This document shows, one piece after another, positions 17,066-43,066 of a stretch of DNA of 64,000 nucleotides. How positions within the stretch are numbered: the first letter of the stretch is position 1; each line of letters starts with the position of its first letter. Location: NCBI GenBank assembly GCA_022897995.1, contig GCA_022897995.1_4763.1. The stretch is one strand, 5' to 3'. The notes below the pieces were generated by a model that was given only the letters and a program-made list of their open reading frames with translations, was not told the DNA's origin and made no database searches. Both the position numbers and the translations under genes were made by a program. The DNA is from a phage.

Positions 17066-20379
<3,314 letters not shown>

Positions 20380-39738: not shown

Positions 39739-40293
39739 TTACACATCAGCCTTTTCCATTTCTCGAATGAATGCGTTAATAAATTGTTTAATTTGTGTAG
39801 GATCTATGATCTTGATCTTGCGTCGTTCCTCATTGCGGAGAATCGCATCTTCCAGTGTGTCTACTGCCGATAATGCACCATGAAACTGCAAATGACGATG
39901 ATGAATATCTCCTTTATCATACCAATTGCTTGATCCTTTCGGATATTCGGCAAGATTCCAATACTTGTTTCCGTCAATATCAACGTGGTATAATACTTGA
40001 TTTCCTCCTACATTTGCATATCGCTGTTCGGCTGATTCATATGCTGTCTCTTGATCGGTGATCCAGTCATGGAATGGATCGTATACGTCATTAAGCATCA
40101 GCAAGATCCAGTAAAGTTGTTGGTTTCCGTATACTTCATATGCAACTTGTTCCGGTCGTGGACTACCTTGAATATAATATGTTTGTATGTTATAATCAGA
40201 AATTATTGCGTTGAAATATGCGCGGTAATTGCGCACAATGTCAGTAATCATCTTGCCGTTGTATTCAATGGCAGGGAAGAAAGAAAAGAGCAT
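39739..40293 (-). CDS. 53: baseplate wedge subunit gp53
   Basis: 184 aa; ..YYIQGSPRPEQVAYEVYGNQQLYWILLMLND.. matches T4 gp53; GAGGA RBS. Confidence 0.85.
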   Translation of the reverse strand: MLFSFFPAIEYNGKMITDIVRNYRAYFNAIISDYNIQTYYIQGSPRPEQVAYEVYGNQQLYWILLMLNDVYDPFHDWITDQETAYESAEQRYANVGGNQVLYHVDIDGNKYWNLAEYPKGSSNWYDKGDIHHRHLQFHGALSAVDTLEDAILRNEERRKIKIIDPTQIKQFINAFIREMEKADV

Positions 40294-40325
40294 TTTAGCA
40301 TCCTCGATTGATAAATAGTATTATG

Positions 40326-40348: not shown

Positions 40349-40822
40349 ATGGGAGGATCTAACACTTATAAGGGCAAATATGTTCCTGAGAATAAGGAAA
40401 AGTATAAAGGGGATATACGGAAAATCACATACCGTTCAAGCTGGGAATTGCATGTTTTTAAATGGTGTGACCGTAATCCTCATGTGGTTAAATGGGGATC
40501 TGAGACCGTTGTAATTCCTTACAATTCATCAACAGACGGTAAGCGTCACAGATATTTTGTTGATGTTTATGTTAAGTTTGATGATGGAAAAGAGCATTTA
40601 TGGGAAATTAAGCCAGCCAAAGAGACTAGACCACCAGAAAAGCCAAAGCGATTAACGACTAAAACAAAGCAGCGTTATATGATGGAGGCTTGGACGTGGA
40701 CGAAAAATACCGAAAAGTGGGCAGCGGCAGTAGCATTGTGTAAAAAACATAATATGGAATTTAAAATCATAACCGAACACACATTAAAAAAGGTGTTCGG
40801 TTTTAAAGGTTTAAATAAGTGA
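40349..40822 (+). CDS. 4: putative head completion protein gp4
   Basis: 157 aa; T4 position between 53 and 2; RBS AAAGGGTG; assignment by synteny and size. Confidence 0.55.
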   Translation: MGGSNTYKGKYVPENKEKYKGDIRKITYRSSWELHVFKWCDRNPHVVKWGSETVVIPYNSSTDGKRHRYFVDVYVKFDDGKEHLWEIKPAKETRPPEKPKRLTTKTKQRYMMEAWTWTKNTEKWAAAVALCKKHNMEFKIITEHTLKKVFGFKGLNK

Positions 40823-41833
40823 GTTCTTAAAGTCTTTTACTATAGTTTGATAGCATTGGTCGGGATACCCATTCTCGACCGCTATTTTTCTTGTTTTTCT
40901 ATCGCTAGGCATACCATTTTCTTTCCACAGCTTATATATTTCGTCATAATATACCCAGACACCAGAATTTTTTCTGGGATTTAATTTTATTATGTCGTTT
41001 CCATTCTCCTTTATGTACTTATTTTTCATTTCTTTAACGATGTAATCATATGACCTATCTGGGTATCCACGTTTAATGGCCTCGCGCTTGAATACATATT
41101 GACCCGGCATATTCAGATCAATCCATAATGCATATAACTCATCAAATTTTCCCCATGTTTCTTTCGGTTTTTGTGAATCTGAAAGTAGTTTGGCGATTCT
41201 TTGTTTTTCTTCGTCTGACTTTGAGTTTATAGTTTGTAGAAGCCTTTCTCTTCGTAATTTAAGTTTTTCCTCTGATCTATTACTTAACGCCTTTGATATT
41301 TTCTTGCCACGTTCTTTATACTTTCTTTCTCGTTCTTCATCGCTCAAGTTTCTAAAATGTTCTTTAACGGAATCAGTTCTTTTCTTATGGCGACGTTTTA
41401 ATTCTTCTTCATCAAGAGAAGCCATGAAACGTTTTTGTGATTCCGACATTTTCAGTCTAGATTCTTCCGTGTATACATGTTTTCGCTTTGCCTCTTCTGA
41501 TATACCAGCAAGTTTCAACACAATATCTTCTGGCAATTCCTTCATAATATCAATTCGGGTATTAAACATCATAACAACAGACTTCCAAATGGAATTTGTT
41601 GCTTTACTGAAATAGTAGTGTGCCATCATATGACGAACGGTGTTCAAGTGAACAGCATTAAAATCATGAATTTTAAGGTCTTCATATTCCTTCCAAATTG
41701 ATTTTGGTAGAATATGATGCCTCTCTAATTCCCCATCCTTATCTGGGTTTGCACAAATTTCTAGATACTTTTCTAAATACTTGATATCTGCATTCGGAAA
41801 CTGCATCAAAATTTTGTTCTTAATATCTTGCAT
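40811..41833 (-). CDS. free-standing HNH homing endonuclease (Mob-like)
   Basis: 340 aa; HNH motif ERHHILPKS..NAVHLNTVRHMMAH; repeated C-terminal DNA-binding-like modules (RGYPDRSYDYIVKEMKN / NGYPDQCYQTIVKDFKN); AGGAGG RBS; opposite strand between genes 4 and 2. Confidence 0.8.
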   Translation of the reverse strand: MQDIKNKILMQFPNADIKYLEKYLEICANPDKDGELERHHILPKSIWKEYEDLKIHDFNAVHLNTVRHMMAHYYFSKATNSIWKSVVMMFNTRIDIMKELPEDIVLKLAGISEEAKRKHVYTEESRLKMSESQKRFMASLDEEELKRRHKKRTDSVKEHFRNLSDEERERKYKERGKKISKALSNRSEEKLKLRRERLLQTINSKSDEEKQRIAKLLSDSQKPKETWGKFDELYALWIDLNMPGQYVFKREAIKRGYPDRSYDYIVKEMKNKYIKENGNDIIKLNPRKNSGVWVYYDEIYKLWKENGMPSDRKTRKIAVENGYPDQCYQTIVKDFKNSLI

Positions 41834-41959
41834 CTAAGGTTCCTCCTATGTTATAATGATATTTATCAACAAGTATCGCTGTTTATTTTCGTCTGCATTT
41901 TAGCAATAGCAAAGAGGATTGTCAAGTGTGTAACATACATAAACATAGAGGATAATATT

Positions 41960-42781
41960 ATGAGCGTATTTGAAATAATCACAGAAGACGAAAAGCCGTC
42001 TCCCCAAAAACGAAAGTCTAAACAGTGGGTTGAATTGGGTGTAGAATTTGCAAAAGCAAAAGCCAAAGGCATGACAGCTAAAGCATTTGCAGATTCTAAG
42101 GGAATAGCCTATGCGACTTTCACTAAAAGTATGTCTCGTTATGCCAGCGAAATTAAAACAGCAATAGAAGTTGAAAAACTAAAAGGGAAAGGCGCAAAGG
42201 GTCTCAATAAGCAGCAACGCGCAATGATGATGATTAATGATTTTCGTGCGTCTATGCGTGCTGTATCAAAGAGTCGTCCTAAAGAAAAATCACAGGAGTG
42301 GTTTACTAAAACAATAAAAGCGGGAATAAAGGGACACCAGATCGTAAAACCGCAAGTAGGGCGAATCTATACCTTTATGTATGATGCGAAGTATAAAGAC
42401 ACTTTGCCATATTGGGATGTTTTCCCGCTGATCATTTGTCTGGGTGATTCTAAGACAAAGGCGGGTAATACTGTAATGCTTGGTCTTAACTTACACTATG
42501 TAACGCCTAAAGCCCGTCAGCAGTTTCTGGAAGCACTTTTAAAGCAATATGCATCTACTCCAACATTAAGCAATAAAACACGCTTGAAGATTAAATGGAG
42601 CGATGTAAAAGGTATGCGTGGTAGTGATCACATGATCAAAGCATACTTGCCGGGACACATTAAAACAAAACTTGTTGAGATTAGCCCGAAAGACTGGAGC
42701 AATATTATCTATATGCCTACATATCAGTTTATGTCAAAAGGCAAGAAATACGATGCAAGGAAAGTTTGGAAGGATGCATAA
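41960..42781 (+). CDS. 2: DNA end protector protein gp2
   Basis: 273 aa from ATG 41960 after GAGG RBS (ORF track starts at 41828); T4 position and size (~274 aa). Confidence 0.65.
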   Translation: MSVFEIITEDEKPSPQKRKSKQWVELGVEFAKAKAKGMTAKAFADSKGIAYATFTKSMSRYASEIKTAIEVEKLKGKGAKGLNKQQRAMMMINDFRASMRAVSKSRPKEKSQEWFTKTIKAGIKGHQIVKPQVGRIYTFMYDAKYKDTLPYWDVFPLIICLGDSKTKAGNTVMLGLNLHYVTPKARQQFLEALLKQYASTPTLSNKTRLKIKWSDVKGMRGSDHMIKAYLPGHIKTKLVEISPKDWSNIIYMPTYQFMSKGKKYDARKVWKDA

Positions 42782-42784
42782 GAT

Positions 42785-42812
42785 TAAGCCCGTCATTGAC
42801 GGGCTTTTTTAT
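42785..42812 (+). terminator. intrinsic terminator
   Basis: AAGCCCGTC-ATTG-ACGGGCTT hairpin plus T6. Confidence 0.7.
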
Positions 42813-43066
42813 TATAGATCGATAGCATGAGCATAACCATGTAAGAAGTCTTTTAATTCTTCCTTATTGGTAACACGCTGTAAAATCTCTAATGCCTTGT
42901 CGCGATCACGTAATGCACCTGAAAGGGATTTTATTTGGTCATCCCTTTCTGCAATCTGCTTAAGCAGATCTGTATTGCATTTAGACAAATAGAGAACTTC
43001 ACCCCGCAATGTTGCCAATTCGTTGTCCAAACGATCATAGAGTTTTAACAAAATGTCTTCTGTCAT
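42812..43066 (-). CDS. hypothetical coiled-coil protein (84 aa)
   Basis: GAGGA RBS then ATG 43066; opposite strand between genes 2 and 3. Confidence 0.45.
   Translation of the reverse strand: MTEDILLKLYDRLDNELATLRGEVLYLSKCNTDLLKQIAERDDQIKSLSGALRDRDKALEILQRVTNKEELKDFLHGYAHAIDL

What the first reader, a model, noticed from the sequence alone, without database searches (positions are those of the whole stretch)
40811..41833. Free-standing HNH homing endonuclease between genes 4 and 2 on the opposite strand
A 340-aa ORF with a canonical HNH motif (HHILPKS..N.VHL..H..AH) and repeated C-terminal modules (RGYPDRSYDYIVKEMKN / NGYPDQCYQTIVKDFKN) interrupts the otherwise co-directional 4-2-3-1 gene string. 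In T4 this interval has no such gene. Together with the terminase intein endonuclease it indicates at least two selfish endonucleases in the window.
Basis: partly seen in the sequence, partly recalled or inferred. Interest (0 to 1): 0.45.

Follow-up and report, generated by a model that had tools for sequence, protein, structure and literature searches.

The report
MobD-like HNH homing endonuclease cassette
A selfish DNA-cutting enzyme gene of a well-known phage type (T4 MobD family) has inserted between two conserved structural genes of an RB49-like coliphage and carries a foreign piece of its neighbour gene with it. This is ordinary for T4-type phages, and the gene is already annotated in a near-identical published genome.

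Summary
ORF 40811-41833 (-) encodes 340 aa. His39, His40, Asn59, His68 and His72 are invariant in 125 homologues, and two C-terminal ~50-aa modules are 42% identical to each other.

The window is a Krischvirus (RB49-like). In RB49 only 11 nt separate genes 4 and 2, and in T4 the two genes overlap by 1 nt. The window has a 1126-bp, 34% GC insert there (40819-41944). Only 3 of 59 Krischvirus isolates carry it.

Profile comparison links the N-terminal domain to T4 MobD (97% probability), and both C-terminal modules match the MobD C-terminus. The cassette has its own sigma70-type promoter and a strong ribosome-binding site.

In every genome that has the insert, the adjacent 375 nt of gene 4 are about 22% diverged, mostly at silent sites. 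Genes 53 and 2 stay 97-99% identical.

The best reading is an active or recently active free-standing homing endonuclease whose target probably lies in the conserved 3' end of gene 4. Cleavage and homing were not tested. Fold searches against solved structures found no HNH structure, and Pfam does not hit the protein.

The identical protein is already annotated as an HNH homing endonuclease in phage Ec_Makalu_002 and mentioned in a paper. Interest is low.

The parts
40819..41944 (.). 1126-bp insert relative to endonuclease-free Krischviruses (34% GC against 41% for the window)
   Evidence: Pairwise alignment with RB49. The insert is absent from 56 of 59 Krischvirus records.
40811..41833 (-). 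340-aa MobD-family HNH endonuclease ORF
   Evidence: The ORF is intact in 14 independent copies. Among 4 isolates there are 8 synonymous and 4 nonsynonymous variable codons, p=4e-4 for purifying selection.
41474..41833 (-). N-terminal catalytic domain (aa 1-120). The HNH core covers aa 36-79 (nt 41597-41728): strand 36-40 ending in H39-H40, N59, strand 60-64, and helix 65-79 with H68 and H72.
   Evidence: Invariant residues. AlphaFold2 pLDDT 97.1 with beta-beta-alpha topology. hhalign to T4 MobD 97.4%.
41168..41473 (-). Central charged helical linker (aa 121-222) with degenerate S-[DE]-E-x-[KR] repeats. It occupies the position of the NUMOD3 repeats in relatives.
   Evidence: No Pfam hit in the query. 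NUMOD3 is found in 35 of 80 homologues. The region aligns with NUMOD3-bearing Vibrio and MIZ3 proteins.
41009..41167 (-). C-terminal module 1 (aa 223-275), a predicted three-helix, probably DNA-binding unit
   Evidence: 33% identical to the T4 MobD C-terminus, E 4e-8. Helices 230-239, 245-254 and 263-277.
40814..40978 (-). C-terminal module 2 (aa 286-340), a tandem duplicate of module 1
   Evidence: 42% identical to module 1, E 2e-13. Matches MobD at E 5e-4.
41897..41925 (-). Sigma70-type promoter TTGACA-17 nt-TAAAAT with a TG extension, inside the insert, reading into the ORF
   Evidence: 11 of 12 consensus positions; tied for the top score in the scanned region and the only site with the TG extension. 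Function was not tested.
41840..41847 (-). Shine-Dalgarno AGGAGGAA, 7 nt upstream of the ATG
   Evidence: Read from the sequence. Also annotated as a ribosome-binding site in Ec_Makalu_002.
41860..41867 (-). GATAAATA box (7 of 8 of the T4 late-promoter TATAAATA), part of a 17-mer shared with the region upstream of gene 4
   Evidence: TTGATAAATAnnATTAT occurs only at 40308 (+) and 41869 (-) in 64 kb, against 0.05 expected. This was a post-hoc pattern.
40448..40822 (+). Foreign allele of the 3' three-quarters of gene 4 that travels with the insert
   Evidence: About 22% diverged from all endonuclease-free Krischviruses and >=99% identical among all carriers. Counted over the whole gene, 50 codons differ synonymously and 21 nonsynonymously.
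40811..40822 (.). 12-nt convergent overlap. The last codons of gene 4 (L-N-K-stop) and of the endonuclease (S-L-I-stop) are encoded on opposite strands.
   Evidence: All four gene 4 codons differ from RB49.
40349..40822 (+). Gene 4 (head completion protein), left neighbour and probable target gene
   Evidence: Hypervariable among Krischviruses.
41960..42781 (+). Gene 2 (DNA end protector), right neighbour. Its ribosome-binding site, ATAGAGGATAATATT, starts exactly at the right end of the insert.

Best explanation
This is a self-contained, free-standing homing endonuclease cassette of the T4 Mob (MobD-like) HNH family. It is inserted in antisense orientation exactly between the stop codon of gene 4 and the ribosome-binding site of gene 2 in a Krischvirus.

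Shown:
- The cassette carries its own sigma70-type promoter-like site and a strong ribosome-binding site.
- It encodes a 340-aa protein made of an HNH catalytic domain (H39, H40, N59, H68, H72), a charged helical linker in the place of NUMOD3 repeats, and two tandem copies of the ~50-aa MobD C-terminal module.
- It is sporadically distributed.
- It is always linked to a foreign allele of the 3' 375 nt of gene 4.

Inferred mechanism: during mixed infection the enzyme nicks or cuts the endonuclease-free allele of a co-infecting relative. The most likely target is the roughly 85 nt at the 3' end of gene 4 and the 4/2 junction. This stretch is nearly invariant in all endonuclease-free Krischviruses but has 19 of 85 changes, plus the insertion, in carriers. 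Recombinational repair from the carrier genome then copies the cassette together with the diverged, presumably uncleavable, gene 4 tail. Crossovers resolve where homology resumes, near 40420-40448 on the left and at the gene 2 ribosome-binding site on the right.
For: Presence and absence at one precise site:
- 3 of 59 isolates carry it.
- RB49 has 11 nt there.
- All 22 metagenomic contigs read that encode the near-identical protein P0001 show the same context (10 displayed, the rest collapsed as similar).

Catalytic residues are invariant in 125 homologues.

Homology to T4 MobD:
- HNH domain: hhalign 97.4%, E 1e-11.
- C-terminal module: E 4e-8 and 5e-4.
- PHROG 655 'homing endonuclease' 6e-15 and phrog_12434 'HNH endonuclease' 4e-6.
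- NUMOD3 in 35 of 80 homologues and Pfam HNH in 5.

The N-domain model is confident and has beta-beta-alpha topology.

The ORF is intact in 14 copies, and purifying selection is indicated by 8 synonymous against 4 nonsynonymous changes, p 4e-4.

The insert has low GC, 34% against 41% for the window.

The flanking sequence is asymmetric:
- Gene 4 is about 22% diverged from 40448 to its end only in carriers, while genes 53 and 2 are 97-99% identical.
- There are 19 of 85 mismatches left of the insertion point and 0 of 55 to the right.
- The same 85 nt are conserved (at most 4 differences across the 140-nt junction comparison that contains them) in 8 endonuclease-free genomes, including those with otherwise diverged gene 4 alleles.

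A parallel case exists in phage MIZ3. A Mob-like HNH gene lies on the other side of gene 4, and the divergence is confined to the adjoining 5' 120 nt.

The carriers belong to different Krischvirus species.

The promoter-like site matches 11 of 12 consensus positions.
Against: - No biochemical or genetic test was possible.
- Pfam, NCBIfam and PDB sequence searches do not recognise the query as HNH.
- T4 MobD itself has never been shown to be active, and its target is unknown (PMC2988022).
- All carriers share nearly the same left boundary. This is compatible with a single acquisition spread by ordinary recombination rather than repeated homing.
- The diverged-tract pattern fixes where homology resumes, not where the enzyme cuts.
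- No donor phage with this gene 4 allele but without the endonuclease gene was found.
Confidence: 0.78

Rival explanations
1. A passive accessory cassette: a once-mobile endonuclease gene that no longer cuts and is now spread or retained only by ordinary homologous recombination and drift.
For: - The left boundary of the linked gene 4 tract is almost the same in all carriers.
- Frequency among isolates is low, 3 of 59.
- T4 MobD, the closest characterised relative, has no demonstrated activity.
Against: - All 14 copies are intact.
- Synonymous changes outnumber nonsynonymous ones against the neutral expectation, p 4e-4.
- All five catalytic-motif residues are retained.
- The cassette occurs in different genomic backgrounds and species.
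Confidence: 0.1
2. A domesticated nuclease or DNA-binding protein that benefits the phage. It might exclude competitors or degrade host or plasmid DNA, or it might regulate genes 4 and 2 by binding DNA or through antisense transcription. In this reading it is not a selfish homing element.
For: - It has its own strong promoter-like site and ribosome-binding site, whereas seven of the free-standing T4 endonuclease genes, mobD among them, are promoter-less cassettes.
- It is antisense to the late genes 4 and 2.
- It shows purifying selection.
- Marker exclusion by homing endonucleases is itself a competitive function.
Against: - It is absent from 95% of close relatives, so it is not needed for growth.
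- The architecture is that of site-specific homing enzymes.
- The tight linkage to a recoded neighbour-gene allele is what self-immunity of a homing enzyme predicts.
Confidence: 0.08
3. Not an HNH nuclease at all: a helical DNA-binding protein whose His/Asn pattern only mimics the motif.
Against: - Five motif residues are invariant across 125 diverse homologues.
- The profile aligns motif to motif with T4 MobD. MobD is placed in group 1 of the His-Me finger superfamily (PMC5714182) and gives a sub-threshold PF01844 hit.
- The motif sits on a strand-strand-helix element in a model with pLDDT 97.
- The spacing N-x8-H-x3-H equals that of colicin E9 DNase (from my own knowledge, not tested here).
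Confidence: 0.04

Closest known systems
T4 MobD (free-standing HNH endonuclease, gene between nrdC.11 and mobD.1)
   Same: - The HNH core aligns motif to motif: E-x-HHI[LI]P ... N-x-V-x-L ... H-x-x-AH.
- The ~50-aa C-terminal module W..YD.LY.LW...P....F...I...GYP...Y..[LI]V..F is shared.
- Both are free-standing between conserved genes.
   Different: - The query has two tandem C-terminal modules, MobD has one.
- The hairpin loop between His40 and Asn59 is 5 residues longer.
- The query is 340 aa, MobD 259 aa.
- It is antisense to its neighbours and has its own promoter-like site, whereas mobD is a promoter-less, co-oriented cassette.
- The insertion site is different.
- MobD's activity and target are undetermined.
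T4 / Aeh1 MobE (HNH, between nrdA and nrdB; experimentally active, targets nrdB)
   Same: - It belongs to the same Mob group of the His-Me finger superfamily.
- It is a free-standing gene next to the conserved gene it is thought to target.
- Mobility is accompanied by co-conversion of flanking sequence.
   Different: - No direct sequence comparison was run here.
- MobE is co-oriented and translationally coupled to nrdA and is regulated by an internal terminator and a hairpin that hides the ribosome-binding site.
- No significant hairpin over the ribosome-binding site was found here (z -0.8).
T4 SegF / SegG 'intronless homing' with marker exclusion
   Same: Working model only. A free-standing endonuclease cuts a neighbouring conserved gene of a related phage at some distance from its own gene, and repair co-converts the intervening polymorphic sequence. 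This matches the diverged gene 4 tract found here.
   Different: SegF and SegG are GIY-YIG enzymes, a different catalytic family and a different locus.
I-HmuI (SPO1 intron HNH nickase, PDB 1U3E)
   Same: The general design is the same: an N-terminal HNH domain, a NUMOD-type linker and C-terminal helical DNA-binding modules.
   Different: - It belongs to a different His-Me group (group 2, HNH_3).
- It was not retrieved by sequence profile or fold search.
- It is intron-encoded.
Ec_Makalu_002 ORF131 (GenBank QGS83736.1)
   Same: The protein is 100% identical and in the same position. It is annotated 'putative homing endonuclease, HNH family' and mentioned in PMC11611945.
   Different: The published mention is one sentence. 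It gives no family assignment, target analysis or flank comparison.

Membership tests
HNH / His-Me finger (beta-beta-alpha-metal) nuclease superfamily | Conserved catalytic His at the end of strand 1, a structural Asn, and metal-binding His or Asn in the following helix | tested here: met
   H39 125/125, H40 124/125, N59 125/125, H68 125/125 and H72 125/125. All are invariant in A3.
HNH / His-Me finger (beta-beta-alpha-metal) nuclease superfamily | Beta-beta-alpha fold that superposes on solved HNH structures | tested here: inconclusive
HNH / His-Me finger (beta-beta-alpha-metal) nuclease superfamily | Match to a curated HNH profile | tested here: not met
   No Pfam or NCBIfam HNH hit for the query even at E<=1. 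The only support is indirect: PHROG families annotated as HNH or homing endonuclease, 5 of 80 homologues hitting PF01844, and T4 MobD scoring 18.1 bits, below the 21.4 cut-off.
HNH / His-Me finger (beta-beta-alpha-metal) nuclease superfamily | Divalent-metal-dependent DNA nicking or cleavage | not testable with these tools
   Needs a biochemical assay.
T4 Mob (MobD-like) free-standing HNH endonucleases | Sequence homology to the MobD catalytic domain | tested here: met
   hhalign of A3 against T4 MobD: probability 97.4%, E 1e-11, 56 columns covering the motif.
T4 Mob (MobD-like) free-standing HNH endonucleases | Homology to the MobD C-terminal module | tested here: met
   BLASTP E 4e-8 for module 1 and 5e-4 for module 2 against MobD aa 198-254.
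T4 Mob (MobD-like) free-standing HNH endonucleases | NUMOD3 repeats between the nuclease and the C-terminal module | tested here: inconclusive
   There is no NUMOD3 hit in the query, but 35 of 80 homologues have one. The query's linker aligns with NUMOD3 regions of relatives but lacks the conserved Gly.
Homing endonuclease gene (functional class) | Sporadic presence at one precise site among close relatives | tested here: met
   3 of 59 Krischvirus records carry it, and the insert has exact boundaries. All 22 metagenomic contigs read for protein P0001 show the same context.
Homing endonuclease gene (functional class) | Flanking sequence co-transferred or diverged next to the element (co-conversion or immunity tract) | tested here: met
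   A 375-nt gene 4 tract is about 22% diverged only in carriers, while genes 53 and 2 are 97-99% identical.
Homing endonuclease gene (functional class) | Site-specific cleavage of the element-free allele and resistance of the carrier allele | not testable with these tools
   A target is predicted in the conserved 85 nt left of the junction, but this is inference only.
Homing endonuclease gene (functional class) | Preferential (super-Mendelian) inheritance in mixed infection | not testable with these tools
   Needs phage crosses.

The most novel reading that the evidence does not exclude
In RB49-like phages the gene 4 neighbourhood may be an arena where several unrelated endonuclease genes compete.

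- At least four separate insertion points occur within about 3 kb: 53|4, 4|2, 2|ORF130 and ORF130|3.
- This competition could be what drives gene 4 into mosaic alleles only 69-90% identical, in genomes that are otherwise 97-99% identical.
- Alleles such as those of JEP8 and phiS, which have no adjacent endonuclease gene, would then be cleavage-resistant 'scars'.

In the window's element the unit of transfer would be an endonuclease gene fused by a 12-nt overlap to a recoded gene 4 tail. The element would also replace the native 4-2 transcriptional coupling with its own divergent promoters.

The duplicated ~50-aa C-terminal module would be an undescribed DNA-binding domain family. It has no Pfam or PDB relative and is shared by HNH proteins and proteins without that N-terminal domain.
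Probability: 0.3. Interest if true: 0.45.

Novelty: already known. Interest (0 to 1): 0.22.

Why it matters
It matters little beyond phage genomics. It is a clean natural example of a free-standing endonuclease gene carrying a piece of its neighbour gene.

It offers a concrete, easily testable target prediction: the last ~85 nt of RB49 gene 4. That could give the first activity and target data for the MobD branch, whose T4 founder is still listed as 'activity not determined, target unknown'.

For people using Krischviruses in phage therapy cocktails, it flags a locus where co-infecting phages will exchange sequence non-randomly.

Tried and rejected
- Pfam and NCBIfam scans of the query found no HNH, NUMOD or AP2 domain.
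- PDB sequence searches found nothing credible. This covers the single sequence, the N-domain profile and the C-module profile.
- I tested for an RNA hairpin hiding the ribosome-binding site, as in mobE and I-TevI. The fold is not significant, z -0.8.
- I looked for a donor phage with the same gene 4 allele. Only the three carriers match; the next best is 80%.
- A DNA-level search for relatives of the insert found none beyond the three carriers.
- The insert has no match in E. coli genomes.
- I checked whether the closest protein relatives share the 4|2 site. They do not. P0007 sits between genes 3 and 1 of another T4-like contig, and P0003 sits in a Vibrio genomic island beside a serine recombinase and an EcoRV-type restriction-modification system.
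- There is no exact T4 late promoter TATAAATA in front of the ORF or of gene 2, only the 7/8 match GATAAATA.
- My first selection test, over 14 copies, was biased because 10 of the contigs were retrieved by exact protein identity. I redid it on the 4 isolates only.
Full report
**What is there.** The window is a Krischvirus, an RB49-like T4-type coliphage. The 4.2 kb around the finding is 98.5% identical to Escherichia phage Ec_Makalu_002 and matches 59 phage records.

Its neighbours are:
- gp53, 39739-40293 (-)
- gp4, 40349-40822 (+)
- gp2, 41960-42781 (+)
- a conserved 84-aa minus-strand ORF, 42812-43066
- gp3 and gp1

In RB49 only 11 nt separate genes 4 and 2, and in T4 the two genes overlap by 1 nt.

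Alignment with RB49 defines a 1126-bp insert at 40819-41944. It lies between the last codons of gene 4 and the gene 2 ribosome-binding site ATAGAGGATAATATT. The insert has 34% GC, against 41% for the window.

**Distribution.**
- Among 50,697 phage records only three carry the insert: Ec_Makalu_002, Cognac and vB_EcoM_PHB13. This holds at DNA and at protein level.
- The other 56 Krischvirus records lack it.
- No E. coli genome has it.
- All 22 metagenomic contigs read for the near-identical protein P0001 show the same context, antisense between gp4 and gp2 (10 displayed, the rest collapsed as similar).
- The three carrier isolates are assigned to different Krischvirus species.

**The protein.** An exhaustive HMMER search found 261 relatives at E<=0.001.

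In an alignment of 125 N-terminal domains, H39, N59, H68 and H72 are in 125/125 sequences and H40 in 124/125. So the other refutation criterion, non-conserved catalytic residues, is also not met.

The motif spacing HH-x18-N-x8-H-x3-H has the same N-x8-H-x3-H tail as colicin E9 DNase. That comparison comes from my own knowledge and was not tested here.

A profile of the domain aligns motif to motif with T4 MobD: hhalign probability 97.4%, E 1e-11. The His-Me finger classification places MobA-E in its group 1 (PMC5714182).

AlphaFold2 models are confident, with pLDDT 90.9 for the full length and 97.1 for aa 1-120. They place the motif on a strand (36-40), strand (60-64), helix (65-79) element.

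The fold assignment remains incomplete:
- Pfam and NCBIfam do not hit the query.
- PDB sequence profiles find nothing.

The central region (aa 121-222) is a charged helical linker. The query gives no NUMOD3 hit, but 35 of 80 homologues do.

The two C-terminal modules are real duplicates, 42% identical with E 2e-13. Both match the C-terminus of MobD, at E 4e-8 and 5e-4. Of those 45, 22 have the HNH domain and 23 do not. It has no Pfam or PDB relative. No AP2 domain is present.

**Is the gene alive?** All 14 copies examined are intact. Among the four isolates, whose retrieval did not depend on protein identity, 8 variable codons are synonymous and 4 nonsynonymous. The neutral expectation is 81% nonsynonymous (p 4e-4). 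This indicates purifying selection.

**Expression signals.**
- The insert contains a sigma70-type site on the minus strand, TTGACA-17-TAAAAT with a TG extension, at 41925-41897. It matches 11 of 12 consensus positions, tying for the top score in the scanned region, and is the only site there with the TG extension.
- AGGAGGAA lies 7 nt before the ATG.
- A 7/8 match to the T4 late promoter, GATAAATA, lies 26 nt upstream of the ATG. It is part of a 17-mer, TTGATAAATAnnATTAT, that occurs only here and in front of gene 4 (0.05 expected). This pattern was noticed after the fact.
- No significant hairpin covers the ribosome-binding site.

Seven free-standing T4 endonuclease genes, mobD among them, are described as promoter-less cassettes co-oriented with their neighbours (PMC2988022). 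So the antisense orientation with its own promoter is a difference. None of these signals was tested.

**The flanks.** This is the most informative result. In every carrier (the window, three isolates, ten contigs), gene 4 from about 40448 to its stop is about 22% diverged from all endonuclease-free Krischviruses. Among carriers it is >=99% identical.
- Counted over the whole gene, 50 codons differ synonymously and 21 nonsynonymously.
- The first 100 nt of gene 4, gene 53 and gene 2 are 97-99% identical in everyone.
- In the 85 nt left of the insertion point the window differs from RB49 at 19 positions. In the 55 nt to the right it differs at none.
- Those same 85 nt are almost invariant in eight endonuclease-free genomes: at most 4 differences across the 140-nt junction comparison that contains them. 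This includes JEP8, phiS and MIZ3, whose gene 4 is otherwise strongly diverged.
- The endonuclease ORF ends inside gene 4. Its last three codons and its stop codon are the reverse complement of the last four codons of gene 4, and all four of those differ from RB49.
- The left boundary varies slightly. The window, Makalu_002 and PHB13 carry the foreign bases at 40420 and 40423, while Cognac and the contigs do not.

**Interpretation.** The unit that moves is the endonuclease gene plus the foreign gene 4 tail. Both are bounded by the points where homology to recipient genomes resumes. This is what intronless homing with co-conversion produces (SegF, SegG and MobE in T4). It is also what self-immunity predicts, because a carrier that regained the sensitive gene 4 allele would cut itself.

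I therefore place the likely target in the conserved 3' end of gene 4 or the 4/2 junction of endonuclease-free phages. This is inference. The pattern alone shows where recombination resolves, not where the enzyme cuts. The near-constant left boundary is also compatible with a single acquisition spread by ordinary recombination.

**Context.** The 53-4-2-ORF130-3 cluster of Krischviruses holds different endonuclease genes at different points:
- A Mob-like HNH+NUMOD3 gene lies between genes 53 and 4 in MIZ3. There the gene 4 divergence is confined to the adjoining 5' 120 nt, a mirror image of the window.
- A 343-aa ORF lies right after gene 2 in Phi1 and Cognac and, judging by an insert of the same size there, probably in other records listed. 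Phi1 and Cognac also have a diverged gene 2 tail. I take this ORF to be the phi1 'segC' gene of Arbiol et al. (PMC2839356), but the paper does not use the ORF number.
- An HNH_3+AP2 gene lies between ORF130 and gene 3 in phiS.
- An HNH gene lies next to 5.1 in GEC-3S.

Cognac carries two of these, one on each side of gene 2. The closest outside relative of the query (P0007, 39% identity) sits between genes 3 and 1 of another T4-like contig. Vibrio relatives sit in a genomic island.

**Comparison with what is known, and verdict.** The element works like, and by sequence belongs to, the T4 Mob group of free-standing HNH homing endonucleases. Its nearest relative there is MobD.

It differs in four ways:
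- it has a second C-terminal module;
- it has a longer hairpin loop;
- it is in antisense orientation with its own promoter-like site;
- it occupies a different insertion site.

The identical protein is already deposited as 'putative homing endonuclease, HNH family' (QGS83736.1). One sentence of the Makalu phage paper notes it as one of two HNH homing endonucleases in Ec_Makalu_002 that are absent from Ec_Makalu_001 and Phi1 (PMC11611945).

The finding is correct but ordinary. What this analysis adds is the family assignment, the linked foreign gene 4 tract, a testable target prediction and the local endonuclease hotspot.

Noticed in passing
window 17069-19885 (-): The large terminase is 938 aa, against about 610 aa in T4 (T4 length from my own knowledge). 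The sequence reads SRQLGK|ALDVN...PTHN|TTAVA, an intein-like insert inside the Walker A loop, with a LAGLIDADG_3 domain at aa 364-422. Only 12 of 89 matching phage records cover the whole gene; most Krischviruses lack about 1 kb.
   Followed up: partly
L021 2258-2953 (MIZ3); L002 2449-3480 (Phi1); L004 6075-7103 (Cognac); L022 4766-5299 (phiS); L006 1-587 (GEC-3S): The Krischvirus 53-4-2-ORF130-3 cluster is an endonuclease hotspot. At least four further endonuclease genes of different families sit at different intergenic points, and Cognac has one on each side of gene 2.
   Followed up: partly
window 40349-40822, compared with L001, L020, L021, L022: Gene 4 alleles are only 69-90% identical among genomes whose genes 53 and 2 are 97-99% identical. 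JEP8 and phiS carry diverged alleles with no adjacent endonuclease gene, which may be scars of earlier invasions or resistant alleles.
   Followed up: partly
window 42680-42800, compared with L002, L004, L005: The 3' 120 nt of gene 2 are diverged in the genomes that carry the ORF130.1-type endonuclease (Phi1, Cognac). PHB13 shows a weaker version of the same pattern although it lacks that ORF.
   Followed up: no
window 40308-40324 (+) and 41853-41869 (-): The 17-mer TTGATAAATAnnATTAT occurs only twice in 64 kb, upstream of gene 4 and upstream of the endonuclease ORF (0.05 expected). It contains GATAAATA, a 7/8 match to the late promoter. It may be a shared promoter element or a trace of the cassette's origin.
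   Followed up: partly
window 41849-41857 (+) and 40857-40881 (+): An extended -10 sequence, TGTTATAAT, inside the insert points at gene 2. A hairpin followed by a T-run lies just after the gene 4 stop. Together they suggest the insertion may have rewired gene 2 transcription.
   Followed up: no
window 40349-40822 (+): gp4 (head completion protein) matches Pfam Tn7_TnsA-like_N, an endonuclease-like fold, at E 5e-21.
   Followed up: no
window 42812-43066 (-): A conserved 84-aa coiled-coil-like ORF of unknown function (phrog_17832, RB49 ORF130) lies antisense between genes 2 and 3 in all Krischviruses examined. A bidirectional terminator-like hairpin is at 42786-42806.
   Followed up: no
L013-L019 (metagenomic contigs): Six of the ten contigs shown (and others collapsed with them) that carry the endonuclease gene break at the same point, 1328 nt upstream of the endonuclease ORF start, beyond gene 2 and the ORF130 homologue. 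This is probably an assembly break caused by strain variation at the site where the Phi1-type endonuclease gene is present or absent.
   Followed up: no
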